A DNA stretch of 64,000 nucleotides from Oscillospiraceae bacterium. GTDB lineage: Bacteria; Bacillota; Clostridia; Oscillospirales; CAG-272. Position 1 is the stretch's first letter. Each line of letters starts with the position of its first letter. The notes beneath the pieces were generated by a model. It was given only the letters and a program-made list of their open reading frames with translations. It did no database searches and was not told where the DNA came from. Below, piece after piece: positions 9,327 to 53,557 of the stretch. The stretch is from contig SVSX01000003.1 of NCBI GenBank assembly GCA_015064085.1, positions 9,145 through 73,144 of the forward strand. The letters run 5' to 3'. The position numbers were made by a program, and so were the translations under genes.

Positions 9327-9379
9327 TACGATGTTCCTTGTTTTCCGTCAAAACGCATATCTATTTTTTATAAATCTTC

Positions 9380-9408
9380 TTGACAGGGAATAGGAAAAAC
9401 TGTATAAT
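9380..9408 (+). promoter_or_regulatory. consensus sigma-A promoter of the rnf operon
   Basis: TTGACA (9380-9385), 17-nt spacer, TATAAT (9403-9408), about 90 nt upstream of rnfC. Confidence 0.7.
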
Positions 9409-9495
9409 ATAATTGTATAAAAAATTGGCGCACTTTTAGGATATATATCTTCACGTGCGCCTTTTTCACAAATATAAATACGGAAGGTATTCGTT

Positions 9496-10830: not shown

Positions 10831-10845
10831 GGGAAGGAGATAGTA

Positions 10846-12934: not shown

Positions 12935-12935
12935 A

Positions 12936-14230: not shown

Positions 14231-14240
14231 AGGTGAGTTT

Positions 14241-15949: not shown

Positions 15950-15976
15950 CTGACGAGCAGTCAAAGCGTTTTTTTA
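15941..15976. terminator. bidirectional rho-independent terminator between the rnf-associated operon and the convergent transketolase genes
   Basis: 12-bp perfect stem ACGCTTTGACTG / CAGTCAAAGCGT with an A-run on the left and a T-run on the right. Confidence 0.8.
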
Positions 15977-15987
15977 TGTTATTAAAA

Positions 15988-16926: not shown

Positions 16927-16938
16927 GATAGTTCCTCC

Positions 16939-35197: not shown

Positions 35198-35263
35198 AAC
35201 ATTTCTCCTTTTATCAATTAAGAACTCTGTACAATTATACCATATACAATTCAAAATGTAAAC

Positions 35264-38548: not shown

Positions 38549-38549
38549 T

Positions 38550-39467: not shown

Positions 39468-39473
39468 TTAGAG

Positions 39474-39516
39474 GCGTTCTTCACGGCATTGTGCCGTGAA
39501 GAACGCTTGCTTTTTT
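39474..39516 (+). terminator. rho-independent terminator after sufBD
   Basis: 15-bp perfect stem GCGTTCTTCACGGCA / TGCCGTGAAGAACGC followed by a T-run. Confidence 0.85.
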
Positions 39517-39992: not shown

Positions 39993-40021
39993 TTGACATT
40001 TTTGCTCCGATATGATAATAT
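39993..40021 (+). promoter_or_regulatory. promoter of the large ABC cassette
   Basis: TTGACA (39993-39998), 17 nt, TGa-TAATAT (40016-40021). Leaves a leader of about 230 nt. Confidence 0.55.
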
Positions 40022-40251
40022 ATCGTTACAAAATTGCGGCAAAAACGATCCTGCGGGCTGTTGAAAGCCCGATTTCGTTTTGCCCGTTTAACAATGCAAA
40101 AAAGCATTGGTTAGTTTCGACACCGTAGCGTTTCTGCCGTATGCCGACGGTATACGCGCGTTCCGCGCGGTCGCGCTCGGTGTCAAAGCCCTTTGACGTG
40201 TCTTCCCACGTCTCTGGGTCAATTCTCAAATTCAGCAGGAGGAAAATTCAA

Positions 40252-43200
40252 ATGAGAAAGACGAAATTTCAAAGAATAACCGCTTTTGCGCTGGCTTTGG
40301 TATTTCTGCTTTGCGGTGGTGTTGGTATCAGCGCGGCTGACGTTGGATCATCCGTTACCGACACATCCTTGAGCGACATTAAGGAATTGCTGAACTCAAT
40401 TTCTTATGAGACCTACAGGGAAAACAACGCGGCAGTTCCGCGCGCAGAGGCAGAGGTGGTTATTGACGCTGCTGCGAATTATGTATTCGTGGCTGCTGAC
40501 GGCACAACTGTTTATACACAGGATTCGGTTATCGAAGAGGGTGTAGACAAGAAGAACGTAGCCTATAAGACGGAGTACGACGGCGTAAGCGGTCTGTATG
40601 TTCCCGGTATGGGTACGGTCTCCTGGACGACGGATCAGATCAAGACCGCTGCTAAGTACAGCATTGAGATCGAATACTATCCCGTTCAGAACAAGGCAGC
40701 TTCCATAGAGAGAGTATTTATGGTAAACGGCGCTGTTCCCTTTGCGGAGGCACGTTATCTGACTATCTCCAAGGTATGGAAGAACGTATATGAGGACGGC
40801 GTCTTCAAGCTCGAAGAGGGCGAGAGCGCAGAGTCTTACGTTACTAAGGCTGCGGAGCTTGGCATTAATGCTGTTTCCGAGGCGAGAAGCGACGGAACTT
40901 ACATTATATATAAAATGCCCTCCGTATGGACAAAGGATGTATCCGAGCTTGTTGATTCTCAGACTATCCGCTTCTTCAAGGAAGACATAGATAGAAACGA
41001 GATCAGAGCAAGCCTTGAGCAGGCTCCCGTATGGACCTCTTACGAGTTCCGTGATGCGAACGGCTTCTATCAGGAGTCCTTCGAGTTTGTTCTTGAGCCT
41101 GACGAGAACGGTCTTGTTACCATCTCTCTTGAGTCGGTAAACGAGCCTATCGCTATATCGAAGATCAAGCTTGTTCCTCATACGGGATATATGACCTATG
41201 AGGAGTATATCAAGCAGTACGAGAACGAGCCCGCGGGAACAGATAGAGTAAAGATAGAGGCAGAGTATTTTGCTAACGCTTCTTCTCAGACGATCTATCC
41301 TCTCGAGGACAAAGCGAGTGCTATCACCTCTCCTACGGCTACCGACAGAACTGTTCTCAACACCATAGGCGGTGAGAAGTGGCAGACTGCGGGTCAGTGG
41401 GTAACATATCAGATGCAGGTTGATGCCAGCGGTATGTACGAGATCGCGGCGCGTTACCGCCAGGCGGTGCTCGACGGTATGTTCGTATCCCGTTCACTTC
41501 ACATTTACAGTGATTCCACTGTTGCTCCCGGCGAAAAAGGATATTACAACGGCATTCCCTTTGCTGAAGCAGCTAACCTTCGCTTTGGATATTCTTCGGA
41601 TTGGCAGTCCGATACAGTTAACGACGGTGAGATAGACACATTCAAGTTCTATTTCAAGGAAGGCGTCGTTTACACGATCAAGATTGAGGTTACTCTTGGA
41701 AGTATGGGAGCGATCGTTAATACGGTCCAGAACTCTCTTGACTCGATCAACCAGGATTACCTTAATATACTTAAGCTCACAGGATCTGAGCCCGACGATA
41801 CCCGTGACTACGGCTTCTCAAGAGTAATGCCCGACACGATGGTCGACCTTATCATCCAGTCCCGCACACTTACTAAGGTTGCTGAGCAGCTCGCTGAGGT
41901 AGCGGGAGACAAGAGCTCGATGACCGCTTCTCTTGAAAAGGTCGCAAGACTTCTTGATACTATGGGTAAGGATGAGGACGAGGTCGCTAAGAACCTTGAA
42001 CAGCTCAAATCCAATATCGGTACTCTTGGTACGTGGCTCGGCGATGCGAAGACCCAGCCTCTCCAGCTTGACTTTATCGTCGTTCAGGGTGACGGACAGG
42101 AGCTCCCCGAGGCAGAAGCAAACTTCTTTAAGGCTATGGTTTACGAGTTCACGAGATTCTTCCAGAGCTTCTTCAGAAACTACGACCGTATGGGCGCTCT
42201 TGAGGAGATAGACGAGGAGGATTCCGTTGAGGTATGGCTTGCGTACGGACGTGACCAGACACAGGTTATCCGAAGCCTTATCAACAACGACTTCACACCT
42301 AAGACGAACGTTGCTGTTGACCTTAAGCTCGTTGCGGGCGGTACACTGCTTCCTTCCATTCTTTCGGGAATGGGTCCTGAGGTCTATATAGGACTCGGAC
42401 AGTCTGACGTTATCAACTACGCTATTAGAGGCGCGCTCCTTCCTATTGATAATCAGGCGACCTTTGATGACGCGATCAAGGAGTTCAACGAGGCGGCAAT
42501 GATCGTTCTCGGAATTGAGAACTCCGCAGGTGAGTTCCATTACTATGGACTCCCCGAAACACAGGCGTTTAATATGATGTTCGTTCGTGAGGACGTTCTC
42601 GCGGACCTTGAGATAGAGATCCCCAGAACATGGGATGACGTTCTTGAGGCTATCCCGATACTTCAGGCGAACAATATGATGATCGGTATGCACACCGACT
42701 ACAAGGTATTCCTTTACCAGATGAACGGTGAGCTTTATGCCGACAACGGAATGAGAATCAACCTCGATTCCAACGTTGCGCTTAACGCGTTCAACACAAT
42801 GTGTAACATGTTTACGATGTACTCATTCCCCTACAAGTATGACTTTGCAAACCGTTTCAGAACGGGTGAAATGCCTATCGGATTCGCGGCTTACGCAGCA
42901 ACCTACAACCAGCTCAAGGTATTCGCAACCGAGATCGAAGGTCTTTGGGGCTTCTACCCGATGCCCGGTTACGAGCAGGCTGACGGAAGCATCAACAATG
43001 TTTCGGTTTCCTCAGTATCCGCGATCGTTATGCTTACAGGCTGCCAGGATGAGGCTGGCGCTTGGGAATTTATGAAGTGGCATTCGGGCGCGTCCTGCCA
43101 GATCGAGTACTCCAACGAGATGGTTGCTCTTATCGGTCCTTCCGCTAAGCACTCTACCGCTAACATTGCGGCTCTTGAGAGTATGCCTTGGACGAATGAG

Positions 43201-43680
43201 GAATACATTCAGCTTTCTTACCAGTTCGATAACCTCGCTTCTATTCCTAACTACCCCGGAAGCTATATTATCGACCGTTACACCAACTTCGCGTTCCTTG
43301 ACGCATTCAACAATGCGGCAGACCCCGTAACAGAGCTTCAGAGCTACATTACGACGATCAACAAGGAGATCACACGTAAGCGTACTGAGTTTGAGCTTGA
43401 AACTCTCGATTATGTCGGACAGACACTCGCAGAGAAGAGAATGACTCAGGCAGCAGAAAAGATCGAGGAGCTTAAGACCTCCTCGGGATACACCGCAACA
43501 TACGACGCTGTCTGCCAGAGAGCGATCGACACAATGGATGGCGGTGAAACAGATGACTATGCTTCTCTCAGATCGGCAGCAGATGCTTTTGAAGAAGCAA
43601 ATGCCGAATTCTTCGCCGACGTTATCAAGTATTTGAGAAGCGCCGCAGATTCACTTGAATCGTACGAAGCATATAAATAA
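40252..43680 (+). CDS. giant secreted solute-binding protein: two CBM-like beta-sandwich modules, helical linker, family-1 SBP domain and helical tail
   Basis: AGGAGG RBS before MRKTKFQRI and a signal peptide. CBM6/35-like segment KIEAEYFANASS...GQWVTYQMQVDASGMYEIAARY. SBP core VEVWLAYGRDQTQVIRSLINNDFTPKTNVAVDLKL... Confidence 0.75.
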   Translation: MRKTKFQRITAFALALVFLLCGGVGISAADVGSSVTDTSLSDIKELLNSISYETYRENNAAVPRAEAEVVIDAAANYVFVAADGTTVYTQDSVIEEGVDKKNVAYKTEYDGVSGLYVPGMGTVSWTTDQIKTAAKYSIEIEYYPVQNKAASIERVFMVNGAVPFAEARYLTISKVWKNVYEDGVFKLEEGESAESYVTKAAELGINAVSEARSDGTYIIYKMPSVWTKDVSELVDSQTIRFFKEDIDRNEIRASLEQAPVWTSYEFRDANGFYQESFEFVLEPDENGLVTISLESVNEPIAISKIKLVPHTGYMTYEEYIKQYENEPAGTDRVKIEAEYFANASSQTIYPLEDKASAITSPTATDRTVLNTIGGEKWQTAGQWVTYQMQVDASGMYEIAARYRQAVLDGMFVSRSLHIYSDSTVAPGEKGYYNGIPFAEAANLRFGYSSDWQSDTVNDGEIDTFKFYFKEGVVYTIKIEVTLGSMGAIVNTVQNSLDSINQDYLNILKLTGSEPDDTRDYGFSRVMPDTMVDLIIQSRTLTKVAEQLAEVAGDKSSMTASLEKVARLLDTMGKDEDEVAKNLEQLKSNIGTLGTWLGDAKTQPLQLDFIVVQGDGQELPEAEANFFKAMVYEFTRFFQSFFRNYDRMGALEEIDEEDSVEVWLAYGRDQTQVIRSLINNDFTPKTNVAVDLKLVAGGTLLPSILSGMGPEVYIGLGQSDVINYAIRGALLPIDNQATFDDAIKEFNEAAMIVLGIENSAGEFHYYGLPETQAFNMMFVREDVLADLEIEIPRTWDDVLEAIPILQANNMMIGMHTDYKVFLYQMNGELYADNGMRINLDSNVALNAFNTMCNMFTMYSFPYKYDFANRFRTGEMPIGFAAYAATYNQLKVFATEIEGLWGFYPMPGYEQADGSINNVSVSSVSAIVMLTGCQDEAGAWEFMKWHSGASCQIEYSNEMVALIGPSAKHSTANIAALESMPWTNEEYIQLSYQFDNLASIPNYPGSYIIDRYTNFAFLDAFNNAADPVTELQSYITTINKEITRKRTEFELETLDYVGQTLAEKRMTQAAEKIEELKTSSGYTATYDAVCQRAIDTMDGGETDDYASLRSAADAFEEANAEFFADVIKYLRSAADSLESYEAYK

Positions 43681-43703: not shown

Positions 43704-44651
43704 ATGTCACAAAAAACGGCAGAGAAAAAGGCTGTTGCGCGCAAGGACATGACAAAGATGCAATGGACGCTTAAAGAGATCAAGCGTAATAAAGTTGCGT
43801 ATTTCATGATCGCGCCTTACATGCTCATCTTTACTTGCTTTACAGTATTGCCTGTTGTGCTTTCGATGTTTATGAGCCTTACCGACTTTAACATGTTGGA
43901 AATGCCCAATATCGTCTGGCTCGACAACTACATCAGACTCTTCCTTGATGATGACATCTTCCTTATAGCCGCTAAGAATACACTTATCTTCGCGGTGATC
44001 GTAGGACCTGTGTCTTATATCATGTCATTTATGGTGGCGTGGTTCATCAACGAATTGTCACCGAAGATAAGAGCTCTCGTAACTCTCGTCTTCTATGCAC
44101 CTTCCATTTCAGGTCAGGTTTACCTCGTATGGGCGACCCTCTTCTCGAGTGACTCCTACGGTTGGGCAAACGCTTGGCTGATGAAGCTTGGAATTATAAC
44201 AAAAGAAATAAACTTCTTCCAGGATGCGAAATACGTAATGCCTCTTTGTATCGTAGTTGCTCTCTGGACGTCTCTCGGTACTTCGTTCCTTTCCTTCATC
44301 GCGGGTCTTCAGGGTGTTGACAGAGCACTCTTTGAGGCAGGCGCTGTTGACGGAATCAAAAACAGATGGCAGGAGCTCTGGTATATCGTACTTCCCAGTA
44401 TGAGACCTCAGCTGATGTTCGGTGCGGTTATGGCTATCACCTCTTCCTTCGGCTTCGGCGGAATAGTTACCGCGCTCTGCGGCTTCCCCTCGGTTGACTA
44501 CGCGGCGCACACCATAATGCACCATCTTGATGACTACGGCTCTCAGCGTTTTGAGATCGGTTACTCATCAACGATAGCGGTTATATTGTTTGCCGTGATG
44601 ATCGGCGCAAATATGCTGGTTAAAAAAGTTCTTTCAAAGGTGGGCGAGTAA
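43704..44651 (+). CDS. sugar ABC transporter permease (MalF/LplB-like), pair 1
   Basis: LplB-type N-terminus (LKEIKRNKVAYFMIAPYML). EAA loop region ALFEAGAVDGIKNRWQELWYIVLP. Confidence 0.85.
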   Translation: MSQKTAEKKAVARKDMTKMQWTLKEIKRNKVAYFMIAPYMLIFTCFTVLPVVLSMFMSLTDFNMLEMPNIVWLDNYIRLFLDDDIFLIAAKNTLIFAVIVGPVSYIMSFMVAWFINELSPKIRALVTLVFYAPSISGQVYLVWATLFSSDSYGWANAWLMKLGIITKEINFFQDAKYVMPLCIVVALWTSLGTSFLSFIAGLQGVDRALFEAGAVDGIKNRWQELWYIVLPSMRPQLMFGAVMAITSSFGFGGIVTALCGFPSVDYAAHTIMHHLDDYGSQRFEIGYSSTIAVILFAVMIGANMLVKKVLSKVGE

Positions 44652-44652
44652 T

Positions 44653-45525
44653 ATGGCAAAGTTAAGAACAAGAAAACATAAAGTCGTACTTGCCCGTTCC
44701 GTCGGTGGTGACATGGGAATCACGGTGATACTGTTCATACTCGGTATTTTCATGTTCCTTCCTATGTATTATACGGTCATCCAGTCTCTCAAGCCTCTTG
44801 ATGAGCTCTGGATGTTCCCCCCGAGATTTTACGTAACACGTCCTACGGGCAGAAACTACACAGACCTGTTCACACTTATGGATACGTCTGTAGTACCTTT
44901 CACAAGATACATCTTCAATACCGTCTTCACATCGGTAACAGGTACATTCGGAAACCTCTTCTTCTCGTCCCTCGCGGCTTACGCAATGGCTAAGATCGCG
45001 TTCCCCGGCGGAAAGACGATGTTTAAGCTGGTAAGAACATCTCTTATGTTCCACCAGACGGTTACCGCGGTAACAAGCTTTATCCTTATGAGTGCTTTCC
45101 ATATCATCGATACATATTGGGCGATCATAATTCCTGCTTGGGCAACCTCCCTTGGACTTTACCTTATGAAGCAGTTTATGGATACCCACGTTAATGACTC
45201 GGTGCTTGAAAGTGCAAGACTTGACGGAGCGAGCGAGCTTAAGACCTGGTGGGTCATCGCAATGCCTATGGTTAAGCCCGCGTGGCTCACACTTATAATC
45301 TATTCGTTCCAGGACCTCTGGAACAGAGGCGCGTCTATCTACATTCACTCCGAGGATCTCAAGTCGTTTAACTACGCGATCCAGCAGATCACAGCCGGAG
45401 GAATCAAGCGTGCCGGTGCAAGTGCGGCGGCAACCGTTATTATGATGATGGTTCCGATACTTGTATTCGTTATAACCCAGTCTAACATCATTGAAACAAT
45501 GGGTTCGAGTGGTATGAAGGACTAA
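44653..45525 (+). CDS. carbohydrate ABC transporter permease (MalG/LplC-like), pair 1
   Basis: EAA motif ESARLDGASELKTWWVIAMPMVKP. Six TM segments. Confidence 0.85.
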   Translation: MAKLRTRKHKVVLARSVGGDMGITVILFILGIFMFLPMYYTVIQSLKPLDELWMFPPRFYVTRPTGRNYTDLFTLMDTSVVPFTRYIFNTVFTSVTGTFGNLFFSSLAAYAMAKIAFPGGKTMFKLVRTSLMFHQTVTAVTSFILMSAFHIIDTYWAIIIPAWATSLGLYLMKQFMDTHVNDSVLESARLDGASELKTWWVIAMPMVKPAWLTLIIYSFQDLWNRGASIYIHSEDLKSFNYAIQQITAGGIKRAGASAAATVIMMMVPILVFVITQSNIIETMGSSGMKD

Positions 45526-45540: not shown

Positions 45541-47772
45541 ATGAAAAAATTAACATCTATTATATGTTTGATGTTTGCGTTTGTTCTGATATTGGCTCTT
45601 CCTGTAAGCGCATCCGCGCCGTATGAGACCTATACCTACTCCATTAACGGAACAGCTCTTTCGTCACCCGACGCGTACATTCCCGTAAAAACGGTCGATG
45701 CTATCGCAATGGGTCTCAATGATGATGCAACATTTAAGGAGTTATATCCTGATCTGACAAATGCAAAGACAATTGAGGCTAAGAAGACTCTTGCAAACCC
45801 CGCAGACCTTGAGGTCGATGATCAGATGAACGTTTATATCGCTGATACCGATAATAACAGAATTCTGGTTCTTGACCGTTACTACAAGATAAAGTTCGTT
45901 ATCGAGGGATTCGTTAACGATCAGGGCGTTAAGGATGCTCTTGCAGGTCCTAAGGGTGTGTTTATCACATCCGACAAGGTCGTAAACGGTGAGGTCGTTC
46001 CCGGACGAATCTTCGTTTGCGATACAGTAAACAGCAGAATCGTAACCTTTAACCGCGACGGTGAATTCCTTGGAATAATTCCTCAGCCCGAGTCCGAGCT
46101 CTTCGAGGAAGGCGCAGTTTATAAGCCTGTTGCCGTGGCTGTTGACCAGTACGACAGAATGTATGTCGTATCCGAGACAACCTATCAGGGTATCATCGTT
46201 ATGACTGACACCGGAGAATTCACAGGATTTATCGGAGCACAGAAGGCTACTGTAGGACTTTGGGACCTTATCTGGAGAAGATTCCAGACAGAGGCTCAGA
46301 GAGCAAAGACCGATAAGGTCCTCTCAACAGAGTTCAACAACATCACCATTAATGATGGCGGATTTATCTACGTTACCACATCCTCTATCGAGGAGGCGAG
46401 CGTTGCTTCCGCTATCAACAGTAAGAGTAAGAGCGGTGAGTACGCTCCCGTTAAGATGCTCAACGCGGCAGGTGAGGAGATCATGAGACGTAACGGTTTC
46501 TATCCTCCTTCCGGTGAAGTTGATATGGCAAAGGCAAAGGTAACCGACACCGCTCTTGGTCCGTCCAAGATCGTTGACGTTGCCATAGGTCCTGAGCAGA
46601 CCTGGTCGATCATAGACCAGAAGCGAAGCAAGGTGTTCACATATGACTATGACGGAAACCTCCTCTTCGCGTTCGGTGATACGGGTGAACAGCTCGGTAA
46701 TATCACATCCCAGGGACTTAACGCGATCGTATATCAGGGCGACACAATGCTTCTCCTTGATAAGACCGCAAAGTCTATTTCGGTTTTCCAGCGTACAGAG
46801 TATGGTGATATCATCGTAAAGGCACTTGAAAACCAGAACAACCGCCAGTATGATAAGTCGATTGACGACTGGATGGAGATCCTTAAGAGAAACTCTAACT
46901 TTGACGCAGCTTACATCGGAATCGGAAACGCTCTTTACAGAAGCGGTCAGTTCGAGGAAGCTATCGAGTATTACAAGGCTGCATACGATACAGAAAACTA
47001 CTCCAACGCATACAAGGAGCTCAGAAAAGAGTGGATCTCCAAGTATATCATTTGGATCCCGATCGTTGCTATCGCTATTATCGTCGCTTGGTCAAAGTTT
47101 ATGAAGTTTGCCAAGAAGGTCAATAAGCGTACAGCGACCGCGGGCGGAAAACGTACATACGTTCAGGAATTGCTCTACGTGTTCCACGTAATGTTCCATC
47201 CCTTTGACGGCTTCTGGGATATGAAGCACGAGAAGAGAGGTTCGGTAAGAGCAGGTGCAACGATCCTTGTTATAGCACTTGCGGCATTCTACTACCAGAA
47301 TATCGGTTCGGGTTACATTAACAATCCTCAGGAGATCTATGGAACGATCTTCTCCGTATCCCTCGGAGTTATCATTCCTCTCGTTCTCTGGATTGTCGCA
47401 AACTGGTGTCTCACAACACTGTTCGACGGAGAGGGAAGCATCAAGGATATCTTTATAGCAACAACATACTCCTTAGCTCCTCTCGTTCTCTGTATGGTTC
47501 CCGCAACCATCGCGTCCAACTTCGTTGTCGCTGCAGAAGCTGATATCGTCAGCCTGCTTGTAACACTTGGATTTATCTGGGCAGGACTTCTCATATTCCT
47601 CGGAATGATGGTCACACACGACTACTCCCTTGGAAAGAACGTTCTCACCAGCCTTGGAACAATCGTTGGAATGGTTTGCATAATGTTTATAGCAATACTC
47701 TTCACAACACTTTTGGGCAAGCTCGTAAGCTTTGTTTCCAACATCGTTATCGAGCTCCAGTACCGAGCGTAA
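45541..47772 (+). CDS. secreted NHL-repeat beta-propeller, TPR and C-terminal Yip1-type polytopic membrane domain protein
   Basis: Signal peptide. About six NHL-like blades (VYIADTDNNRILVLD, IFVCDTVNSRIVTFNRDGEF ...). TPR-like YRSGQFEEAIEYYKAAY. C-terminal five-TM Yip1-like region (FHPFDGFW...). Confidence 0.7.
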   Translation: MKKLTSIICLMFAFVLILALPVSASAPYETYTYSINGTALSSPDAYIPVKTVDAIAMGLNDDATFKELYPDLTNAKTIEAKKTLANPADLEVDDQMNVYIADTDNNRILVLDRYYKIKFVIEGFVNDQGVKDALAGPKGVFITSDKVVNGEVVPGRIFVCDTVNSRIVTFNRDGEFLGIIPQPESELFEEGAVYKPVAVAVDQYDRMYVVSETTYQGIIVMTDTGEFTGFIGAQKATVGLWDLIWRRFQTEAQRAKTDKVLSTEFNNITINDGGFIYVTTSSIEEASVASAINSKSKSGEYAPVKMLNAAGEEIMRRNGFYPPSGEVDMAKAKVTDTALGPSKIVDVAIGPEQTWSIIDQKRSKVFTYDYDGNLLFAFGDTGEQLGNITSQGLNAIVYQGDTMLLLDKTAKSISVFQRTEYGDIIVKALENQNNRQYDKSIDDWMEILKRNSNFDAAYIGIGNALYRSGQFEEAIEYYKAAYDTENYSNAYKELRKEWISKYIIWIPIVAIAIIVAWSKFMKFAKKVNKRTATAGGKRTYVQELLYVFHVMFHPFDGFWDMKHEKRGSVRAGATILVIALAAFYYQNIGSGYINNPQEIYGTIFSVSLGVIIPLVLWIVANWCLTTLFDGEGSIKDIFIATTYSLAPLVLCMVPATIASNFVVAAEADIVSLLVTLGFIWAGLLIFLGMMVTHDYSLGKNVLTSLGTIVGMVCIMFIAILFTTLLGKLVSFVSNIVIELQYRA

Positions 47773-47791: not shown

Positions 47792-50700
47792 ATGATGATA
47801 AAAAGAATACTTTCGACCTTTTTAGCTGTGATTATGCTTATGGGATCATTTGCGGTCCTTACCTTCGCTGAGGAAGGCGCAGGTGAAACGACAGAGACAG
47901 AAAAGGTAGAATATACATACAATACCACGTCAGAAAAGCCCTCGATGGACTACCTTAAGGGTATGACTATCGTAGAGCTTGACAAAGACGGTAATCCCGT
48001 TGTTGAGGGAGCAGTACCTACTCCCATCGTAACAAAGGAAGATAAGCTCGCAACCATGGACCTTCGCTTCGAGAAGGACGGCTACCGCCTTTACGTAGAC
48101 GCCTACAGCGGAGAGGTCGCAACTGTTTGCGTAGCAACGGGTGAAATACTCTTCACAAACCCTTATAACACGGGAAGCCAGAAGGCACAGCCCGAAATTA
48201 AGGAAAAGCTGCTCTCCCAGATCGTCGTTAAGTATGCCGACAAGGCAAACAACGGTGAGACCAAGGAGTTCTACAGCTTTGAGGAAACAATTCAGGGTGA
48301 GTCGGATGATACCCCTTACCCTCCCAGCCAGATCGACGTAAAGAATATCAAGAACGGTATTCGTGTTGAGTACACGATCGGTCGTGAAGAGGCAAGAATG
48401 CTTCTTCCTATGCAGATCGAAAAGTCTGCTTTCGAGACCAAGATCCTCGAGGTTATGGCATCCAACCTTGATGACGGAGTAAAGAACTTCACATACAGAC
48501 AGTTCGAATCCTTCTACAGACTTCAGGACCCCGATGCAGCGCCCAGTGAGGAAATGAGAAAGCTTATGCTGGATCTTTACCCCATCACAAAGAAGATGGA
48601 CGTTTATATACTCGATTCCTCCCTCACGTCCGTTAAGAAGGCAAGAGCAGAGTCCTACATCAAGACCTACTGCCCCAGCTACACTTACGAGCATCTGGAA
48701 GAGGACCATCTCTACGCAGAATATGAGGCTAAGGACGAGAATCCTCCTCTGTTCAAGATGGCACTTGAGTATACTCTCGGAACTGACGGAGTTAGCGTAA
48801 GACTTCCTTCGAACGGTATCCGTTTCAATGAGTCGCTCTACCAGCTCGAGCATATCGAGATCCTCCCCTTTATGGGTGCGGGTGCTAACCCCAACGCGGG
48901 TTATACCTTCTATCCCGACGGATCGGGCGCTCTCTTCGATTTCCAGAAGATAGCTAACTCGGGTACAAAGACCGTCGTTACGGGTAAGATATACGGTCAG
49001 GACTACGTTTACCACGAGATCATAGGTAAGCATCAGGAGATCGTAAGATATCCTGTATTCGGACTCGTTGAGACCGAAAGCTACGTTGTAACAAAGGATA
49101 CCGGAAAGGTAGATCCCGAAACGAACACTGCTATTACCGAGGAAGTAACAGAATATCAGGATCGCGGATTCTTCGCGATAGTTGAAGAGGGTGAGGCTCT
49201 TATGGAGCTGACCACCGAGCATGAGGTCAAGCAGCATCCCTTCAATACAGTTAAAATGAAGGTTCGTCCCAGACCTTCCGACAAGTATAACGTCGCGGAC
49301 GCTATCTCTGTTGGTGAAAACAAGGAATTTACCGTTGTTTCGCCCAGAAAGTACGCGGGAAGCTTCAAGGTCAAGTATATTATGCTGACCGATGAGGACC
49401 TTGCTAAGGAAAAGGGACTTGAGAACACATACGATACCGATTATATGGGAATGGCTAAGGCATACAGAGATTATCTCGAAAAGAACGGCACTCTTACCAG
49501 ACTCACAGAAGAGGATGTATCCGAGGATATTCCTCTCTACATCGAGACATTCGGTGCTCTCGAAACAACAAAGAAGGTTCTTTCCATCCCTGTAAGCACA
49601 ATGGCTCCTCTTACATCCTTTGAGGATATCAAGACGATGCACAAGGAGCTCAGCGCAGAGGGCGTAAAGAATATCAACTTTATCCTTACAGGCTATACCA
49701 AGGGCGGTATGACCGAGATCGCTTATCCTTCTGATCTTAAGTGGGAAAAGGCGGTCGGCGGTGAGGAAGGATTCGAGGATCTCGTTGCTTACGCAAAAGA
49801 GAACAAGATCGGAATATTCCCCGACTTTGACTTCGTATTCCTCGCAAACAACACACTTACAGACGGCGTAAGCCTTAAGAATCACGCTGTTAAGACTATC
49901 GATAACAGATATACAAGTAAGCGTGTTTACAGTGCTACCAAGCAGACACACATAAGCTACTATGAGCTTGCGATCTCTCCCGCATATTTCCACGAGTTCT
50001 ATGAGGGCTTCACTGAGAAATATCTCGAGAGCGATCCTATCGGTATTTCGGTTTCAACTCTCGGATATTATCTTAACTCCGACTTTGACGAGGATGAGCC
50101 TTACAACCGTGAGGACTCCAAGGAGTTCACCATTGACGCGTTCAAGCACTTTGATGAGAAATACTCCAAGGTAATGACCTCAGGCGGTAACTCCTACTCT
50201 TGGAAGTACGTTGACTACATTACCGACGTTGCTCTTGACTCCAGCCGTTACGCTCAGGCAGCGGCATCTGTACCTTTCCTTGGAATCGTTCTCCACGGTT
50301 ACGTTCAGATCGCGGGAACACCTATCAATATGGAAGGTAACATCGATTACACCCTTCTTAAGGCAATCGAAAACGGCGCATCGCTCAACTTTATCCTTTC
50401 TTATCAGAACACAGACCTCCTCAAGGAGTCTGTAATATACAACCAGTATTACTCTGTAAGATATGATATCTGGTTCAGCGACGTTGTAAACCTTTATAAT
50501 GAGCTTAACGCACTCCTTAAGGATCTTCAGACGAGCGTTATCGTTGACCACAAGTTCCTTGTAGGTGAGCGTGTTCCCGATGCGGATGAGCTTGAGGCTG
50601 ATGCTCGCGCAGAGCTTGAAGCGGCAATAGAGCTTGAAAAGGCTCTCAAGGAAGCTGCTACAGAGAGTGAGAGAAAGGCGATCCGCGCGGCACTCGACGG

Positions 50701-51382
50701 AATTGTTACAAACACAAATCAGGTATCCACATACCTCAGCTCGATAGAGACAAAGCTCGTGTCTCTCGCAAAATATGATTTCGATGCCGCAATGGCAGCT
50801 GTTGACGCAGCAAAGCTTGCTTACGATGCAGACGTTAATTCCGCTGATCTCAAGAAGGCGTATGAAGATGCAGTAACCGCTGCAACCAATACACTTAATA
50901 TGATCTACGGATACGCGGAGGGTATTTCAACCGACGCTCAGTTTGCAGATCGTTACCAGGGATTTGCTAAGGAAAACATAGACTTCATTATTGCAAACTC
51001 CAAGCTTAGCGATGCTGTCATCAATGACTACCAGCTCGTTGTTGACGCAAGTGCTGCAGTAAATGCTCAGATCCAGGCAAAGGCTGCTGATATAAAGGCT
51101 ATCGCAGTTGCTGCATACGAAAAGATCAAGGTTCACGAGACCACAACAGCTAAGCCCTTCGAGGATAAGCTTATAAATCCTGTAACTCCTCCTCCCGCAG
51201 GAACGGTAGAGGAAGAGGAGAAGCCTGTTTCCAGATATATTTCTGACGACAACAAGATCATTCTTGTTTCGTACAGCAATGGAACATCCTTCATTCTTAA
51301 CTTCAACGATTACGACATTACAACAGTCGTAAACGATACAGTTTACACAGTCGTATCTTACGGATACGTTGTACTCAAATAA
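47792..51382 (+). CDS. 1196-aa secreted protein of unknown function (possibly DUF5696-like, possible glycosidase-like core) with Ala/Asp/Glu-rich helical C-terminal region
   Basis: GGAGGAAG RBS before MMIKRIL and a signal peptide. Central region with IGIFPDFDFVF, SGGNSYSWKY, FLGIVLHGY. C-terminal ~250 aa helical, then a small beta domain. Confidence 0.6.
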   Translation: MMIKRILSTFLAVIMLMGSFAVLTFAEEGAGETTETEKVEYTYNTTSEKPSMDYLKGMTIVELDKDGNPVVEGAVPTPIVTKEDKLATMDLRFEKDGYRLYVDAYSGEVATVCVATGEILFTNPYNTGSQKAQPEIKEKLLSQIVVKYADKANNGETKEFYSFEETIQGESDDTPYPPSQIDVKNIKNGIRVEYTIGREEARMLLPMQIEKSAFETKILEVMASNLDDGVKNFTYRQFESFYRLQDPDAAPSEEMRKLMLDLYPITKKMDVYILDSSLTSVKKARAESYIKTYCPSYTYEHLEEDHLYAEYEAKDENPPLFKMALEYTLGTDGVSVRLPSNGIRFNESLYQLEHIEILPFMGAGANPNAGYTFYPDGSGALFDFQKIANSGTKTVVTGKIYGQDYVYHEIIGKHQEIVRYPVFGLVETESYVVTKDTGKVDPETNTAITEEVTEYQDRGFFAIVEEGEALMELTTEHEVKQHPFNTVKMKVRPRPSDKYNVADAISVGENKEFTVVSPRKYAGSFKVKYIMLTDEDLAKEKGLENTYDTDYMGMAKAYRDYLEKNGTLTRLTEEDVSEDIPLYIETFGALETTKKVLSIPVSTMAPLTSFEDIKTMHKELSAEGVKNINFILTGYTKGGMTEIAYPSDLKWEKAVGGEEGFEDLVAYAKENKIGIFPDFDFVFLANNTLTDGVSLKNHAVKTIDNRYTSKRVYSATKQTHISYYELAISPAYFHEFYEGFTEKYLESDPIGISVSTLGYYLNSDFDEDEPYNREDSKEFTIDAFKHFDEKYSKVMTSGGNSYSWKYVDYITDVALDSSRYAQAAASVPFLGIVLHGYVQIAGTPINMEGNIDYTLLKAIENGASLNFILSYQNTDLLKESVIYNQYYSVRYDIWFSDVVNLYNELNALLKDLQTSVIVDHKFLVGERVPDADELEADARAELEAAIELEKALKEAATESERKAIRAALDGIVTNTNQVSTYLSSIETKLVSLAKYDFDAAMAAVDAAKLAYDADVNSADLKKAYEDAVTAATNTLNMIYGYAEGISTDAQFADRYQGFAKENIDFIIANSKLSDAVINDYQLVVDASAAVNAQIQAKAADIKAIAVAAYEKIKVHETTTAKPFEDKLINPVTPPPAGTVEEEEKPVSRYISDDNKIILVSYSNGTSFILNFNDYDITTVVNDTVYTVVSYGYVVLK

Positions 51383-51401
51383 TTAAAGGGAGGTAATGAA
51401 A

Positions 51402-52355
51402 ATGACAAAAGACGTAAAAGTAAAAGCACCCAAAAAGAGAAAATCAGCCTCCCTTGAAAGACGTAAGGCGCGTGGCGGATGGATATTTGTCGCACCCTTC
51501 GTTATCGGATTTTTGCTGATCTACCTTCCTATGGTAGTTGATTCGATCACATACAGCTTTAACACAATTAAGGTCATCCCCGGCGTAGGATATGAGCTTA
51601 TTCCTGTTGGATGGGCAAACTACTACGAAGCGCTCTTCGATGACCCCGACTACCTGCAGACCCTTATCAAGGGATTGCAGACACTCGCCCTTGACGTTCC
51701 TATGATAATCATCTTCTCGCTCTTTATGGCGGTTCTTCTGAACCAGAAGATGGCAGGACGCGCGGCGTTCAGAGCGATCTTCTTCCTCCCCGTTATTCTT
51801 TCAACGGGTATTATGGAGGAGATCAGAGCATCCAACGCATTTACCGAGTACGCGGGAAGCACTGAGGGTATCGACGACGGATCGGGACAGAACGCATCCT
51901 CCGAGATCGTTTCCTCGATGGACGTTGAGCGACTCTTCTCGGGAATGGCAGTTGGTGAAGGACTTGTTGAGTACGTAGCTCAGGCAATCAACAACATTTA
52001 CAACATTGTAAACCGTTCAGGTGTACAGATGCTTATATTCCTTTCGGGTCTTCAGTCTATCTCTCCCGCTATCTATGAGTCGGTTCAGATCGACGGAGCA
52101 ACCGCTTGGGAGACCTTCTGGAAGATAACATTCCCGATGATAACGCCTATGATCCTAGTTAACGTGGTCTATACGATCATTGACTCGTTTACGACCAACT
52201 CCAACCAGGTCATGGTATTTATCCAGAATATGTACACAGAGAACAACGTTCTCAGCTCTGCAATGGCGTGGATTTATTTCCTGGTAGTAATACTGATCCT
52301 TGCTGTGGTATCTGCCATTATGTCGGCATTCGTATTCTACCAGAGACGTGATTGA
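51402..52355 (+). CDS. sugar ABC transporter permease (MalF-like), pair 2
   Basis: GGGAGG RBS. Basic N-terminus then TMs. EAA region YESVQIDGATAWETFWKITFPMITP. The alternative ATG at 51396 is too close to the RBS. Confidence 0.8.
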   Translation: MTKDVKVKAPKKRKSASLERRKARGGWIFVAPFVIGFLLIYLPMVVDSITYSFNTIKVIPGVGYELIPVGWANYYEALFDDPDYLQTLIKGLQTLALDVPMIIIFSLFMAVLLNQKMAGRAAFRAIFFLPVILSTGIMEEIRASNAFTEYAGSTEGIDDGSGQNASSEIVSSMDVERLFSGMAVGEGLVEYVAQAINNIYNIVNRSGVQMLIFLSGLQSISPAIYESVQIDGATAWETFWKITFPMITPMILVNVVYTIIDSFTTNSNQVMVFIQNMYTENNVLSSAMAWIYFLVVILILAVVSAIMSAFVFYQRRD

Positions 52356-52368
52356 GAGGAGGATAACA

Positions 52369-53484
52369 ATGAACGCACAACAGATCGATAATAAGCCGAA
52401 GGTACAGAAAGAGTCTAAGAATAAAATAAGAGTTGAGTTTGAGAGAACACCTCTTAAAGAAAGACTCAAGGCTAAATTCCTCTCATTGTTCTTCCTTAAG
52501 AAGGTAGTTTGGTACATCTTCAGACTTGTTCTTCTTATTGGTATCGCGTACGTGGTACTTTTCCCCTTCTTCTCCGAGGTCGCGGGCTCAATAATGGCGC
52601 CTCAGGACTTCAAGGACGTTGAAGTTAGACTTATTCCTAAGAATTTTTCACTTGATATCTACAAAGCAATATGGACCGAGCTTGAGTACGTAAAGGCGTT
52701 TACCAATACCCTCATTCTCGCACTTGTAACGGCTTTGATCCAGACCTTCATATGCAGCTTCGTTGCATACGGTCTCGCAAAGTTTAAGTTCAAGGGCAAC
52801 AAGCTTGTATTCTTTGCAGTTATCTTCTCGCTGGTAGTTCCTCATCAGACACTTCAGCTCTCGCTCTTTATGGAGTTCCGTTATTTCGATATTCTCGGAA
52901 TAGCAAAGCTGCTCAACGGCGGCGGAATCGAGCTCTTCGGACGCACATTCCTTCAGTCGATAGACGTGATCCCCGATTCGTGGAAGCTCTTCACACCCGG
53001 TGGAATTACACTTACAAACACCTATTGGCCTTGGATAATCCTCTCCCTTTCGGGTCTCGCGTTTAAGAACGGTCTTTACATCTTCTTGCTCAGACAGTTC
53101 TTCAAGGGCGTTCCCGATGAGCTTGAGGAGTCGGCGTACATGGACGGCTCGGGTATTATAAAGACATTCTTCTCTATAATCCTGCCTCTTTCCGTGCCTA
53201 TGATGATCACGGTATTCCTCTTCGCCTTCTCTTGGCAGTGGACAGATACCTTCTACACAGACACATTCTTCACGATCCAGGATAAGGCAAAGCTCCTTCC
53301 CAAGATCGTTGGAATTCCCGACTCTCTTTCGGGAGTGGTCGACCCCGCTTACCAGAATCTCTACTATGCGGCGATCAGAAACACCTGCGGAATTATGATA
53401 ATAGCTCCGCTGGTCGTACTCTATCTCTTCTGCCAGAGATTCCTTGTTCAGGGTATCGAGCGTTCGGGACTTACAGCGGATTGA
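52369..53484 (+). CDS. carbohydrate ABC transporter permease (MalG-like) with long N-terminal extension, pair 2
   Basis: GAGGAGG RBS before MNAQQID. EAA region ESAYMDGSGIIKTFFSIILPLSVP. Confidence 0.8.
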   Translation: MNAQQIDNKPKVQKESKNKIRVEFERTPLKERLKAKFLSLFFLKKVVWYIFRLVLLIGIAYVVLFPFFSEVAGSIMAPQDFKDVEVRLIPKNFSLDIYKAIWTELEYVKAFTNTLILALVTALIQTFICSFVAYGLAKFKFKGNKLVFFAVIFSLVVPHQTLQLSLFMEFRYFDILGIAKLLNGGGIELFGRTFLQSIDVIPDSWKLFTPGGITLTNTYWPWIILSLSGLAFKNGLYIFLLRQFFKGVPDELEESAYMDGSGIIKTFFSIILPLSVPMMITVFLFAFSWQWTDTFYTDTFFTIQDKAKLLPKIVGIPDSLSGVVDPAYQNLYYAAIRNTCGIMIIAPLVVLYLFCQRFLVQGIERSGLTAD

Positions 53485-53522: not shown

Positions 53523-53557
53523 CCCACGGTTTCTTTACGAAGCCGTGGGCTTTTTTT
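53523..53557 (+). terminator. rho-independent terminator ending the ABC cassette
   Basis: CCCACGGTTTC / GAAGCCGTGGG stem followed by a TTTTTTT run. Confidence 0.8.

What the first reader, a model, noticed from the sequence alone, without database searches (positions are those of the whole stretch)
40252..43680. 1142-aa solute-binding protein carrying two CBM-like modules and long helical segments
The family-1 SBP fold occupies only about residues 690-1060. Upstream are two segments that read like carbohydrate-binding beta-sandwiches. The first contains GTVSWTTDQIKTAAKYSIEIEYYP...ERVFMVNG. The second contains KIEAEYFANASS...GQWVTYQMQVDASGMYEIAARY, which resembles CBM6/35. An Ala/Asp/Glu/Lys-rich helical linker follows them, and another helical tail follows the SBP domain. 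The N-terminus has a signal peptide but no good lipobox, so how it stays at the cell surface is unclear. Fusing CBMs to a transporter receptor would couple polymer binding to oligosaccharide hand-off.
Basis: partly seen in the sequence, partly recalled or inferred. Interest (0 to 1): 0.65.

Follow-up and report, generated by a model that had tools for sequence, protein, structure and literature searches.

The report
Giant sugar-transporter receptor with CBM35-like modules
This gene encodes a real, unusually large sugar-uptake receptor carrying two carbohydrate-binding-type modules; it belongs to a widespread but biochemically unstudied seven-gene uptake cassette of Gram-positive bacteria, whose only studied relative is switched on by xylan.

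Summary
Window 40252-43680 (+) is a genuine 1142-aa gene with a strong ribosome-binding site.

Domain order:
- N-terminal signal or anchor helix, with no conserved lipobox.
- Two beta-jelly-roll modules, D1 and D2. D2 matches a CBM35 by profile (E=2.3e-8). D1's match is weak.
- A conserved helical domain, which is not a mere linker.
- A complete CUT1-type solute-binding fold (residues ~656-1050).
- A helical tail found only in this subfamily.

New here: the protein aligns along its length, apart from two additions, with XloE (Athe_0174/Csac_2419) of Caldicellulosiruptor (31% identity, E=6e-156). XloE is the predicted xylo-oligosaccharide receptor of the xylan degradation locus.

All seven genes of the window operon match that cassette one-to-one:
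- receptor
- XloF/G-like permeases
- NHL-TPR-Yip1 membrane protein
- DUF5696 ("GH129") secreted protein
- AxoF/G-like permeases

The same gene order was seen in every one of the 81 close loci long enough to show it, and in Paenibacillus, Caldicellulosiruptor and Acholeplasmataceae.

The most likely function is a surface glycan-capture receptor feeding an ABC importer. The substrate is unknown: there are no CAZymes nearby and the second receptor, AxoE, is absent. Glycan binding by the modules is inferred, not shown. I found no description of the CBM-like architecture in the searchable literature.

Verdict: new variant of a known kind, moderate interest.

The parts
39993..40021 (+). Promoter-like site (TTGACA-17-TAATAT with an extended TG). 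A leader of about 230 nt follows.
   Evidence: A strong terminator at 39472-39508 closes the upstream suf genes. No Rfam family matches the leader.
40252..43680 (+). XloE-like giant solute-binding protein, 1142 aa (the finding).
40252..40338 (+). N-terminal signal peptide or signal-anchor (residues 1-29), with an AxA-type site and no conserved lipobox.
40429..41187 (+). D1: jelly-roll module with weak CBM35 similarity (residues ~60-312).
   Evidence: CBM35 2vzp at E=0.023. D1 against D2 by hhalign, E~0.01. Cross-matches between D1 and D2 at E 8e-4 and 0.002.
40777..40971 (+). Alpha/beta insertion within D1 (residues ~176-240), absent from XloE and from most distant relatives.
   Evidence: Alignment gaps. 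Lowest conservation, 50%.
41227..41703 (+). D2: CBM35-like jelly-roll module (residues ~326-484).
   Evidence: Profile against PsCITase CBM35-1, E=2.3e-8. Sub-threshold Pfam CBM_35, CBM_6 and Golvesin_C. Invariant W451 aligns with the sugar-stacking Trp507 of PsCBM35-1.
41704..42216 (+). Conserved helical domain plus a strand-helix connector (residues 485-655). No match in Pfam or PDB.
   Evidence: 69% identity; conserved in XloE.
42217..43401 (+). CUT1/family-1 solute-binding domain (residues ~656-1050).
   Evidence: 17 of 43 homologues hit SBP_bac_8 and 11 of 43 hit SBP_bac_1; 76% identity.
43402..43677 (+). Subfamily-specific four-helix tail ending in the conserved motif LESYEAYK.
   Evidence: Absent in P0250, P0147 and Csac_2419.
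43704..44651 (+). Permease 1, XloF orthologue (54% identity).
44653..45525 (+). Permease 2, XloG orthologue (49% identity).
45541..47772 (+). Membrane protein: signal peptide, extracellular NHL beta-propeller and TPR, then a Yip1 multi-pass domain. Orthologue of Athe_0177.
47792..51382 (+). Secreted DUF5696 protein with a long C-terminal helical region. Orthologue of Athe_0178/Csac_2415, which is annotated 'putative GH129'.
   Evidence: The top PDB profile hit is GH129 NagBb 5wzn, at only E=0.015.
51396..52355 (+). Permease 3, AxoF orthologue (34% identity).
52369..53484 (+). Permease 4, AxoG orthologue (32% identity). The start is placed at the ATG that follows GAGGAGG.
53523..53549 (+). Intrinsic terminator closing the seven-gene operon.

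Best explanation
The gene encodes the extracellular receptor of a CUT1-type ABC sugar importer. It is the XloE-type member of a conserved seven-gene cassette: receptor, XloF/G-like permeases, NHL-TPR-Yip1 membrane protein, secreted DUF5696/GH129-like protein, and AxoF/G-like permeases.

**Proposed mechanism.**
1. The protein is exported by its N-terminal hydrophobic segment. It is held at the membrane either by that segment, if uncleaved, or by its partners.
2. The two N-terminal CBM35-like jelly rolls bind a glycan chain at their loop sites. Both keep the Trp that stacks on sugar in CBM35.
3. The secreted DUF5696 protein may trim the chain.
4. The C-terminal bilobed domain closes on an oligosaccharide and docks on the permeases.
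5. Import is driven by a shared MsmK/MsmX-type ATPase encoded elsewhere.

**Shown here.**
- The folds.
- Family membership.
- One-to-one orthology with the Caldicellulosiruptor cassette, and conserved gene order.

**Taken from the literature, for the Caldicellulosiruptor orthologue only.**
- Induction on xylan.
- Control by XynR.

**Inferred.**
- Glycan binding by D1 and D2.
- The identity of the substrate in this organism.
- The anchoring mode.
- Whether one receptor serves both permease pairs.
For: **SBP domain.**
- Fold match to CUT1 binding proteins: E 1e-15 to 1e-13, TM(target) 0.72-0.80.
- Sequence match to Lin1841, E=1.6e-4.
- SBP_bac_1 and SBP_bac_8 hits in homologues.

**Permeases.** Four type-I importer permeases with EAA loops follow in the operon.

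**D2.**
- Profile hit to PsCITase CBM35-1 at E=2.3e-8.
- Invariant W451 aligns with Trp507, the canonical sugar-stacking residue of that CBM35.
- D1 keeps the equivalent W176.

**Fold of the N-terminal region.** Matches are almost all lectins or CBMs.

**Homology to XloE.**
- Collinear alignment (apart from the D1 insertion and the helical tail) with Csac_2419: 31% identity, E=6e-156.
- P0387 was identified as Csac_2419 by gene order.
- All seven genes are one-to-one orthologues of the C. owensensis cassette.

**Conserved gene order.**
- Identical order in every close locus long enough to show it (81 loci).
- The same order in distant members.

**Literature on the orthologous cassette.**
- xloEFG-X-GH129-axoFGE belongs to the XynR/AraR regulon and is 4- to 100-fold up on xylan.
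- msmK is the shared CUT1 ATPase (PMC8579813).
- XynR binds the Athe_0174 operator (PMC12285236).
- Csac_2412 and Csac_2417-2419 are up on xylan-rich biomass (PMC5658599).

**ATPase.** None is present in the operon or the window apart from SufC. This fits use of a shared ATPase.
Against: - The window protein itself passes no Pfam or NCBIfam threshold, for SBP or for CBM.
- CBM35 similarity is at profile level only. D1 is marginal. The Gly/aromatic loop of that CBM35 is replaced by a family-specific motif, LNTIGGxKWQ.
- No binding data exist for any family member. XloE's own role rests on regulon and transcriptome data only.
- Identity to XloE is 31%, and neighbouring genes differ between lineages:
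  - xylanases in Caldicellulosiruptor;
  - GH78 and GH43 in L082;
  - peptidoglycan-type enzymes in L094.
  The substrate therefore cannot be transferred.
- The 64-kb window holds only housekeeping genes among those scanned, with no plant-cell-wall glycoside hydrolase and no sugar regulator.
- Two permease pairs with a single receptor is unexplained. No AxoE-like protein is found in the window or in the 81 close loci.
- The GH129 link of DUF5696 is weak (E=0.015; nothing).
Confidence: 0.6

Rival explanations
1. The protein is still a transporter receptor, but the N-terminal jelly rolls and the helical domain are assembly modules, not glycan binders. They would dock the receptor onto the NHL-TPR-Yip1 membrane protein, the DUF5696 protein, or the second permease pair. 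That would replace the missing lipid anchor.
For: - There is no lipobox anywhere in the family, so some other retention mechanism is needed.
- pTM of 0.70-0.72 for the multi-domain models suggests fixed packing rather than beads on a string.
- The helical domain is more conserved than D1 or D2.
- Strict conservation of gene order across distant Firmicutes is typical of physically interacting products.
- No module reaches a CBM threshold.
Against: - The Trp at the canonical CBM35 sugar site is invariant in D2 and kept in D1.
- The loops at the CBM35 binding-site position are the most conserved part of D2.
- The N-terminal hydrophobic segment could itself be the anchor.
- The two roles are not mutually exclusive.
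Confidence: 0.2
2. The architecture reading is right, but the cargo in this organism is not xylan-derived. It could be a different dietary, host or microbial glycan, for example GalNAc-containing or cell-wall-derived oligosaccharides. The DUF5696/GH129-like protein would be the only dedicated enzyme.
For: - No xylanase or other plant-cell-wall glycoside hydrolase was found among the window genes scanned or in a close relative's called genes.
- The cassette sits between the suf genes and rny. SufC is directly upstream in about 30 and SufBD in 24 of the 80 close loci.
- Neighbouring enzymes differ among lineages, including Amidase_2 and NamZ in Acholeplasmataceae.
- The only solved GH129 is an alpha-N-acetylgalactosaminidase.
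- The permeases are 74-98% identical across the clade. That fits a single common substrate rather than diversifying plant-glycan specificities.
Against: - The only experimental data on any orthologue point to xylan.
- The source clade is ruminant and herbivore gut Clostridia, where hemicellulose oligosaccharides are abundant.
- The GH129 link is weak.
Confidence: 0.35
3. The protein is not a functional transporter receptor. It could be a secreted adhesin or sensor built on an SBP scaffold, or a decaying gene.
For: - The window protein misses the Pfam SBP thresholds.
- No ATPase or regulator is nearby.
Against: - The SBP domain is the best-conserved region (76%), with dense invariant motifs.
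- The fold is complete.
- The ORF is intact in hundreds of species and always lies directly upstream of two permeases.
Confidence: 0.04

Closest known systems
XloE (Athe_0174 in Anaerocellum/Caldicellulosiruptor bescii; Csac_2419 in C. saccharolyticus). It is the predicted xylan-oligosaccharide SBP and first gene of the xylan degradation locus operon xloEFG-X-GH129-axoFGE-xyn... (Rodionov et al. 2021, PMC8579813).
   Same: - Collinear homology through D1, D2, the helical domain and the SBP: 31% identity, E=6e-156.
- The same neighbours in the same order, each a one-to-one orthologue.
- No lipobox.
   Different: - The window protein has a ~60-residue insertion in D1 and a ~90-residue helical tail.
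- Its cassette lacks the second receptor AxoE.
- It also lacks the downstream xylanases and any LacI-type regulator.
- XloE itself has only regulon and transcriptome support.
- I found no mention of its CBM-like architecture in the searchable literature.
Canonical CUT1 oligosaccharide-binding proteins with solved structures. Examples: Lin1841 (sophoro-oligosaccharide BP, 5YSB-5YSF), the cycloisomalto-oligosaccharide BP 9XF5, and Tlet_1705 (5CI5).
   Same: The same bilobed fold over about 415 columns, TM(target) 0.72-0.80. The same kind of permease partners.
   Different: - Those proteins are about 380-440 residues and single-domain, with 14-20% identity to this one.
- This protein carries about 650 extra N-terminal residues and a helical tail.
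CBM35 (and the related CBM6), for example PsCBM35-1 inserted in the GH66 CITase (5X7G) and the CsxA CBM35 (2VZP).
   Same: - Jelly-roll fold.
- Profile similarity, E=2.3e-8 for D2.
- The shared pattern G-x-Y...R-x-L-x-I/V-(D/N)-G...W.
- A Trp at the canonical variable-loop sugar site.
   Different: - Below Pfam thresholds.
- The loop before the core strands carries a family-specific motif (LNTIGGxKWQ).
- The modules are attached to a transporter receptor rather than to an enzyme.
- Binding is untested.
SusD/SusE/SusF-type surface glycan-binding proteins of Bacteroidota polysaccharide utilization loci. This is a functional analogy only.
   Same: Would work alike: a surface protein that captures polymer next to a dedicated transporter and a surface enzyme. 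This rests on my own knowledge plus the review read.
   Different: - No homology.
- A different transporter class (TonB-dependent versus ABC).
- Here the capture modules and the transporter receptor are one polypeptide.

Membership tests
CUT1 / family-1 ABC-importer solute-binding proteins | Bilobed alpha/beta periplasmic-binding-protein fold of the sugar-binding class. | tested here: met
   Foldseek on the AF2 model: E 3.7e-15, TM(target) 0.72-0.80, about 415 columns, with more than 850 PDB chains at E<=1e-3.
CUT1 / family-1 ABC-importer solute-binding proteins | Match to Pfam SBP_bac_1 or SBP_bac_8 at the curated threshold. | tested here: inconclusive
   The window protein has no hit at E<=0.01. 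Among close homologues, 17 of 43 hit SBP_bac_8 and 11 of 43 hit SBP_bac_1 at E<=0.01 (best 5.7e-18 and 7.4e-18); whether each passes the curated cut-off was not checked. Nearly all distant members listed carry precomputed hits to these families. phmmer against PDB finds Lin1841 at E=1.6e-4.
CUT1 / family-1 ABC-importer solute-binding proteins | Encoded next to a MalF/UgpA-like and a MalG/UgpE-like permease carrying EAA loops. | tested here: met
   This holds in every locus long enough to show it.
CUT1 / family-1 ABC-importer solute-binding proteins | Binds a solute and delivers it to the translocator. | not testable with these tools
   Needs ITC/DSF and transport assays.
XloE orthologous group (xloEFG-X-GH129-axoFGE cassette) | Full-length collinear homology to Athe_0174/Csac_2419. 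| tested here: met
   31% identity over 984 columns, E=6e-156. P0387 was identified as Csac_2419 from flanking genes.
XloE orthologous group (xloEFG-X-GH129-axoFGE cassette) | Same neighbours in the same order: two permeases, NHL/Yip1 protein, DUF5696, two permeases. | tested here: met
   One-to-one best hits for all seven genes. The order is conserved.
XloE orthologous group (xloEFG-X-GH129-axoFGE cassette) | Second receptor AxoE at the end of the cassette. | tested here: not met
   tblastn and blastp with the Caldicellulosiruptor AxoE-like proteins found nothing in the window or in the 81 close loci.
XloE orthologous group (xloEFG-X-GH129-axoFGE cassette) | Part of a xylan locus: adjacent xylanases, XynR/AraR control, induction on xylan. 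| tested here: not met
   No plant-cell-wall glycoside hydrolase or LacI/AraR-type regulator among the window genes scanned. Operator sites and induction were not testable.
CBM35 / CBM6 carbohydrate-binding modules | Beta-jelly-roll fold. | tested here: met
CBM35 / CBM6 carbohydrate-binding modules | Significant sequence similarity to family members, or a Pfam family threshold. | tested here: inconclusive
   - D2: the family profile hits PsCBM35-1 at E=2.3e-8.
- D1: E=0.023.
- Pfam CBM_35 scores 12.3 bits against a 28-bit cut-off for the window protein; best in the family is 1e-4 (7 of 19 members).
- CBM_6 is hit by 3 of 19 and Golvesin_C by 12 of 19.
CBM35 / CBM6 carbohydrate-binding modules | Aromatic platform at the variable-loop sugar site. 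| tested here: met
   Invariant W451 (D2) aligns with Trp507 of PsCBM35-1, the canonical-site residue mutated in that study. W176 of D1 aligns with W451. Alignments at this distance may be off by a residue.
CBM35 / CBM6 carbohydrate-binding modules | Demonstrated carbohydrate binding; conserved Ca2+ site. | not tested
   Binding needs experiments. The Ca2+ ligands were not mapped.
GH129 (for the neighbouring DUF5696 protein) | Detectable homology to NagBb or Pfam Glyco_hydro_129. | tested here: inconclusive
   A diverse DUF5696 profile gives 5wzn as the top PDB hit, but only at E=0.015 over 66 residues. The narrower profile found nothing, and no member gave a Pfam hit. The label 'putative GH129' comes from PMC8579813.
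Gram-positive SBP lipoproteins | Lipobox L-[AS]-[GA]-C at the end of the signal peptide. | tested here: not met
   The window protein has F-L-L-C, Cys21 is not conserved, and an AxA site is conserved. A loose lipobox pattern occurs in only 14 of 234 family members.

The most novel reading that the evidence does not exclude
The seven products form one cell-surface machine, a Gram-positive functional counterpart of a Sus-like system.
- The giant receptor captures polymer with its CBM35-like modules.
- The secreted DUF5696 enzyme cuts the polymer in place.
- The NHL-TPR-Yip1 protein scaffolds and anchors the complex.
- In this clade a single receptor feeds two different permease pairs.

Strict conservation of the gene order across Bacilli, Clostridia and Acholeplasmataceae would then mark an unrecognised, widespread glycan-uptake apparatus. 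Its substrate would be reprogrammed from lineage to lineage.
Probability: 0.25. Interest if true: 0.75.

Novelty: new variant of a known kind. Interest (0 to 1): 0.5.

Why it matters
Gram-positive gut and biomass-degrading bacteria are thought to take up oligosaccharides with small lipoprotein receptors, after freely secreted or wall-anchored enzymes have done the cutting. A receptor with built-in polymer-binding modules would be a different solution to the capture problem.

This receptor is always encoded with a second permease pair, a propeller-bearing membrane protein and an uncharacterised secreted protein. The family is large:
- at least 1369 clusters at 50% identity;
- at least 582 species genomes.

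It includes genetically tractable organisms (A. bescii, Paenibacillus), so the idea can be tested directly. The finding also flags that 'XloE', currently treated as an ordinary SBP in Caldicellulosiruptor models, is a five-part protein.

Tried and rejected
**Alternatives ruled out**
- Alternative start at 40141: rejected. There is no RBS, and homologues start at MRKTKF.
- Lipoprotein anchoring: rejected.
- Riboswitch or known RNA in the 780-nt upstream gap: none. The only hits are spurious miRNA matches on the terminator hairpin.
- A dedicated ATPase in the window: none. The only ABC ATPase is SufC.
- Recent duplication of the permease pairs: rejected. They share only 24-33% local identity.
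- Helical tail as a family-wide docking peptide for the TPR: disfavoured. Relatives with the TPR partner lack the tail.

**Searches that found nothing useful**
- Direct Pfam and NCBIfam annotation of the target: nothing usable.
- phmmer of the N-terminal 569 residues against PDB: only coiled-coil noise.
- DUF5696 against PDB with a narrow profile: only helical noise.
- Pfam at permissive E-values on 16 DUF5696 proteins: no glycoside hydrolase family.
- Literature searches for DUF5696, for Yip1 with SBPs, and for CBM-SBP fusions: nothing relevant. A 2026 review of glycoside transporters does not mention CBM-bearing SBPs.
- My guess of Csac_2321-2326 was wrong. Those genes are nucleoside transporter genes.

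- The search for related loci with the diverse N-terminal alignment failed because there was no conserved stretch.
- VanFossen 2009 is not held.

Full report
**1. Is the feature there?**

Window 40252-43680 (+) is an open reading frame of 1142 codons. A longer frame opens at 40141. However, ATG 40252 lies about 8 nt after AGGAGG and begins a classic n-region and h-region (MRKTKFQRITAFALALVFLL...), and the closest homologues start at the same place.

A strong terminator (39472-39508) closes the upstream SufC/SufBD genes. A promoter-like site lies at 39993-40021. The next terminator is at 53523-53549, after six further co-directional genes, so the gene heads a seven-gene operon.

The gene is not a chance ORF:
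- More than 850 homologues were scored, the best 120 nearly all full-length at 59-90% identity.
- The N-terminal 486 residues alone hit 1369 clusters at 50% identity, 977 of them at E<=1e-10. Nearly all hits are at the N-terminus of 930-1400-aa proteins.

**2. Anatomy.**

An AlphaFold2 model built on 43 homologues has mean pLDDT 77.5 and pTM 0.70. A second model of residues 55-483 has pLDDT 79 and pTM 0.72.

| Residues | Element |
|---|---|
| 2-20 | hydrophobic helix |
| ~60-312 | beta-rich module D1, interrupted by an alpha/beta insertion (~176-240) |
| ~326-484 | beta-sandwich D2 |
| 485-641 | block of helices with one strand |
| 659-1046 | alpha/beta domain (SBP) |
| 1059-1141 | four helices |

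Mean identity to the window protein across the 42 homologues ranks the regions as follows:

| Region | Identity |
|---|---|
| SBP | 76% |
| helical block | 69% |
| D1b | 65% |
| D2 | 63% |
| D1a | 60% |
| tail | 55% |
| D1 insertion | 50% |

The 'linker' is therefore a conserved domain, not a spacer. It has many invariant residues and no match in Pfam or PDB.

**3. The C-terminal domain is a sugar-type SBP.**

- Foldseek of the full model against the PDB gives more than 850 hits at E<=1e-3. They are led by CUT1 oligosaccharide-binding proteins (5CI5, 9XF5, 5YSB-F, GacH, MalE, Lmo0181) at E 1e-15 to 1e-13, TM(target) 0.72-0.80, over about 415 aligned columns.
- By sequence, the best solved relative is Lin1841 (E=1.6e-4, residues 660-920).
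- The window protein itself misses every Pfam and NCBIfam model.
- Among close homologues, 17 of 43 hit SBP_bac_8 and 11 of 43 hit SBP_bac_1. Nearly all distant members listed carry precomputed hits to these families.

**4. The N-terminal modules are CBM35-like.**

*D2.*
- A profile of 19 diverse N-terminal regions (A3) hits five CITase sequences, best at E=2.3e-8.
- The matched stretch (chain 408-519 of 5X7G) lies inside domain B, PsCBM35-1, Gly421-Gly547 in the authors' numbering (PMC5408701).
- In that alignment the family's invariant Trp (W451, 'SSDWQS') pairs with Trp507. Trp507 is the stacking platform of the canonical CBM35 sugar site, and the authors mutated it. The mutagenic primers fix the numbering.

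*D1.*
- D1 gives only marginal hits to CsxA CBM35 (E=0.023).
- It aligns in register with D2 by hhalign (E~0.01), W176 on W451.
- BLAST against Csac_2419 gives D1-D2 cross-matches at E 8e-4 and 0.002.
- D1 is therefore probably an old duplicate of D2.

*Both modules.*
- Sub-threshold Pfam hits across the family are consistent: Golvesin_C in 12 of 19 members (best 4.4e-6), CBM_35 in 7 of 19 (1e-4) and CBM_6 in 3 of 19.
- Foldseek of the N-terminal model returns almost only jelly-roll lectins and CBMs: Nictaba, malectin-like ANX2, GH87 CBM35, 2VZR, 2W1W, CBM27 and CBM6. The E-values are weak, 5.6e-5 to 1e-2.
- None of this shows that the modules bind sugar.

**5. Export and anchoring.**

- Cys21 is frequent but not conserved, and its context (F-L-L-C) is a poor lipobox.
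- An AxA-type site with invariant A28 is conserved.
- Family-wide, only 14 of 234 full-length members have even a loose lipobox pattern. Several have long hydrophobic segments without an obvious cleavage site.
- The protein is therefore either cleaved by signal peptidase I and held by partners, or kept as an N-terminal signal anchor. I could not decide between these.
- The tail ends in a conserved LESYEAYK. The whole tail is missing from most of the family.

**6. The neighbourhood is a fixed cassette.**

Downstream genes, in order:
- two permeases;
- a protein with a signal peptide, an NHL propeller, a TPR, one TM helix and a Yip1 multi-pass domain;
- a secreted DUF5696 protein (E=1e-136) with a long helical C-terminal region;
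- two more permeases.

The two permease pairs are only distantly related to each other, and all four carry EAA loops.

A scan of species-representative genomes found at least 582 species with a relative. The best 80 are all uncultured gut Clostridia, Oscillospiraceae or Eubacteriales, mostly from ruminants. In every one of the 81 close loci long enough to show it, the order is identical: receptor, perm, perm, NHL/Yip1, DUF5696, perm, perm. The permeases are the best conserved, at 74-98%.

The same order holds in distant members:

| Member |
|---|
| P0250 |
| P0193 |
| P0147 |
| Caldicellulosiruptor |
| Paenibacillus silvisoli |
| an Acholeplasmataceae MAG |

**7. Link to what is known.**

The 90% cluster of P0380 contains ABP67996.1 of C. 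saccharolyticus. Its flanking genes are an AbrB-type regulator, a GT2 and a GH13 upstream, with two permeases, NHL/Yip1, DUF5696, two permeases and an SBP downstream. These match the published order Csac_2420, 2426, 2428 and Csac_2419 to 2412 (supplement of PMC5658599; Data Set S1A of PMC8579813).

[quoted passage not shown] The published operon is xloEFG-X-GH129-axoFGE-xynFED-xyn10A-xynXB, where:
- Athe_0177 is the 'NHL repeat-containing protein';

Published data on that operon:
- It belongs to the XynR/AraR regulons and is 4- to 100-fold up on xylan.
- msmK is the shared ATPase.
- XynR binding to the Athe_0174 operator was measured (PMC12285236).

The window protein aligns with Csac_2419 from D1 through the end of the SBP: 31% identity over 984 columns, E=6e-156. 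Gaps fall only at the D1 insertion, and the tail is missing. Each of the seven window genes has its one-to-one best hit in the C. owensensis cassette:

| Window gene | Orthologue | Identity |
|---|---|---|
| receptor | XloE | 30% |
| permease 1 | XloF | 54% |
| permease 2 | XloG | 49% |
| NHL/Yip1 protein | NHL/Yip1 | 29% |
| DUF5696 protein | DUF5696 | 26% |
| permease 3 | AxoF | 34% |
| permease 4 | AxoG | 32% |

A diverse DUF5696 profile has the GH129 enzyme NagBb (5WZN) as its top PDB hit, but only at E=0.015. Narrower searches saw nothing.

**8. What differs here.**

- The window clade has no AxoE-like second receptor.
- It has no plant-cell-wall glycoside hydrolase or sugar regulator among the genes scanned in the 64-kb window.
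- It has no ATPase other than SufC.
- The cassette sits between suf and rny. The SufC homologue is directly upstream in about 30 and SufBD in 24 of the 80 close loci, so it looks like a vertically inherited core locus.
- Elsewhere the cassette is flanked by different enzymes:

| Lineage | Flanking genes |
|---|---|
| Caldicellulosiruptor | xylanases |
| L082 | GH78 and GH43 |
| Paenibacillus | LacI and DUF5060 |
| Acholeplasmataceae | Amidase_2, NamZ and GHL10 |

The substrate probably varies between lineages and cannot be assigned here.

**9. Mechanism, with its status.**

- *Shown:* the folds, the homology and the synteny.
- *From the literature, for one orthologue only:* xylan-responsive expression.
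- *Inferred:*
  - D1 and D2 hold a glycan chain at the loop sites.
  - The SBP domain binds a released oligosaccharide and docks on the XloF/G-like pair, and perhaps also the AxoF/G-like pair.
  - The DUF5696 protein is the local enzyme.
  - A shared MsmK-type ATPase powers transport.
  - The NHL-TPR-Yip1 protein scaffolds the assembly.
- The main rival for the N-terminal modules is a protein-assembly role.
- The main uncertainty overall is the cargo.

**10. Novelty and verdict.**

The gene family is already annotated as SBPs. One orthologous cassette has been named and assigned to xylan uptake by regulon reconstruction, so this is not a new kind of system.

What I found no description of in the searchable literature:
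- the five-part architecture of the receptor, including tandem CBM35-like modules and a conserved helical domain;
- the absence of a lipid anchor;
- the strict, phylum-wide conservation of the seven-gene order;
- the single-receptor form seen in this clade.

I rate it a new variant of a known kind, with moderate interest (0.5).

Noticed in passing
window 51396-53484: A second, distantly related permease pair (AxoF/G orthologues) lies in the operon. The cognate receptor AxoE is absent from the window and from all 81 close loci. Two translocator pairs therefore share one receptor gene.
   Followed up: yes
window 45541-47772; L093 14804-16883; L094 14757-16860: The NHL-TPR-Yip1 membrane protein is always present in the cassette. 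In Paenibacillus silvisoli and an Acholeplasmataceae MAG it is split into two genes, propeller/TPR and Yip1. Its role is unknown. Athe_0177 is co-induced on xylan.
   Followed up: partly
window 47792-51382: The secreted DUF5696 protein has a ~200-residue Ala/Glu/Lys-rich helical C-terminal region that the 734-aa Caldicellulosiruptor orthologue lacks. The receptor in this clade also gained a helical tail. Whether the two extensions interact was not tested. DUF5696 length varies about two-fold among the close loci.
   Followed up: partly
window 40022-40251: A ~230-nt leader lies between the promoter-like site and the start codon. It contains two terminator-like hairpins (40054-40071 followed by a T-rich run, and 40092-40109). 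No Rfam family matches. It could be an attenuator or antiterminator target.
   Followed up: partly
L094 1-9940 and 21390-22916: In an Acholeplasmataceae MAG the same cassette is flanked by peptidoglycan-type enzymes (Amidase_2 with Big_2 repeats, NamZ, a beta-lactamase-fold protein, GHL10) and by an Ig-domain-bearing SBP. This hints at a cell-wall-fragment substrate in that lineage.
   Followed up: no
window 37835-39467: A two-gene SufC-SufBD unit lies directly upstream; a SufC homologue is found there in about 30 and SufBD in 24 of the 80 close loci. A distant relative (L083/L084) has NifS-NifU-MnmA in the same position. This is probably coincidental synteny.
   Followed up: partly
window 43654-43677: The C-terminus LESYEAYK is nearly invariant in this subfamily even though the rest of the tail is poorly conserved. 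It is a possible docking peptide.
   Followed up: partly
window 4168-6183: A 671-aa fusion of a GT4 glycosyltransferase with a polysaccharide pyruvyl transferase.
   Followed up: no
window 15946-17658; 32345-33028; 60481-61278; 63186-63839: ORFs of 570, 227, 265 and 217 aa have no Pfam match at E<=1e-5. ORF 34280-35254 has only a leucine-rich-repeat hit.
   Followed up: no
window 8235-15053: An ApbE gene is followed by RnfC-like and FMN_bind (RnfG-like) genes, apparently an Rnf electron-transport cluster. This is ordinary for anaerobic Clostridia.
   Followed up: no
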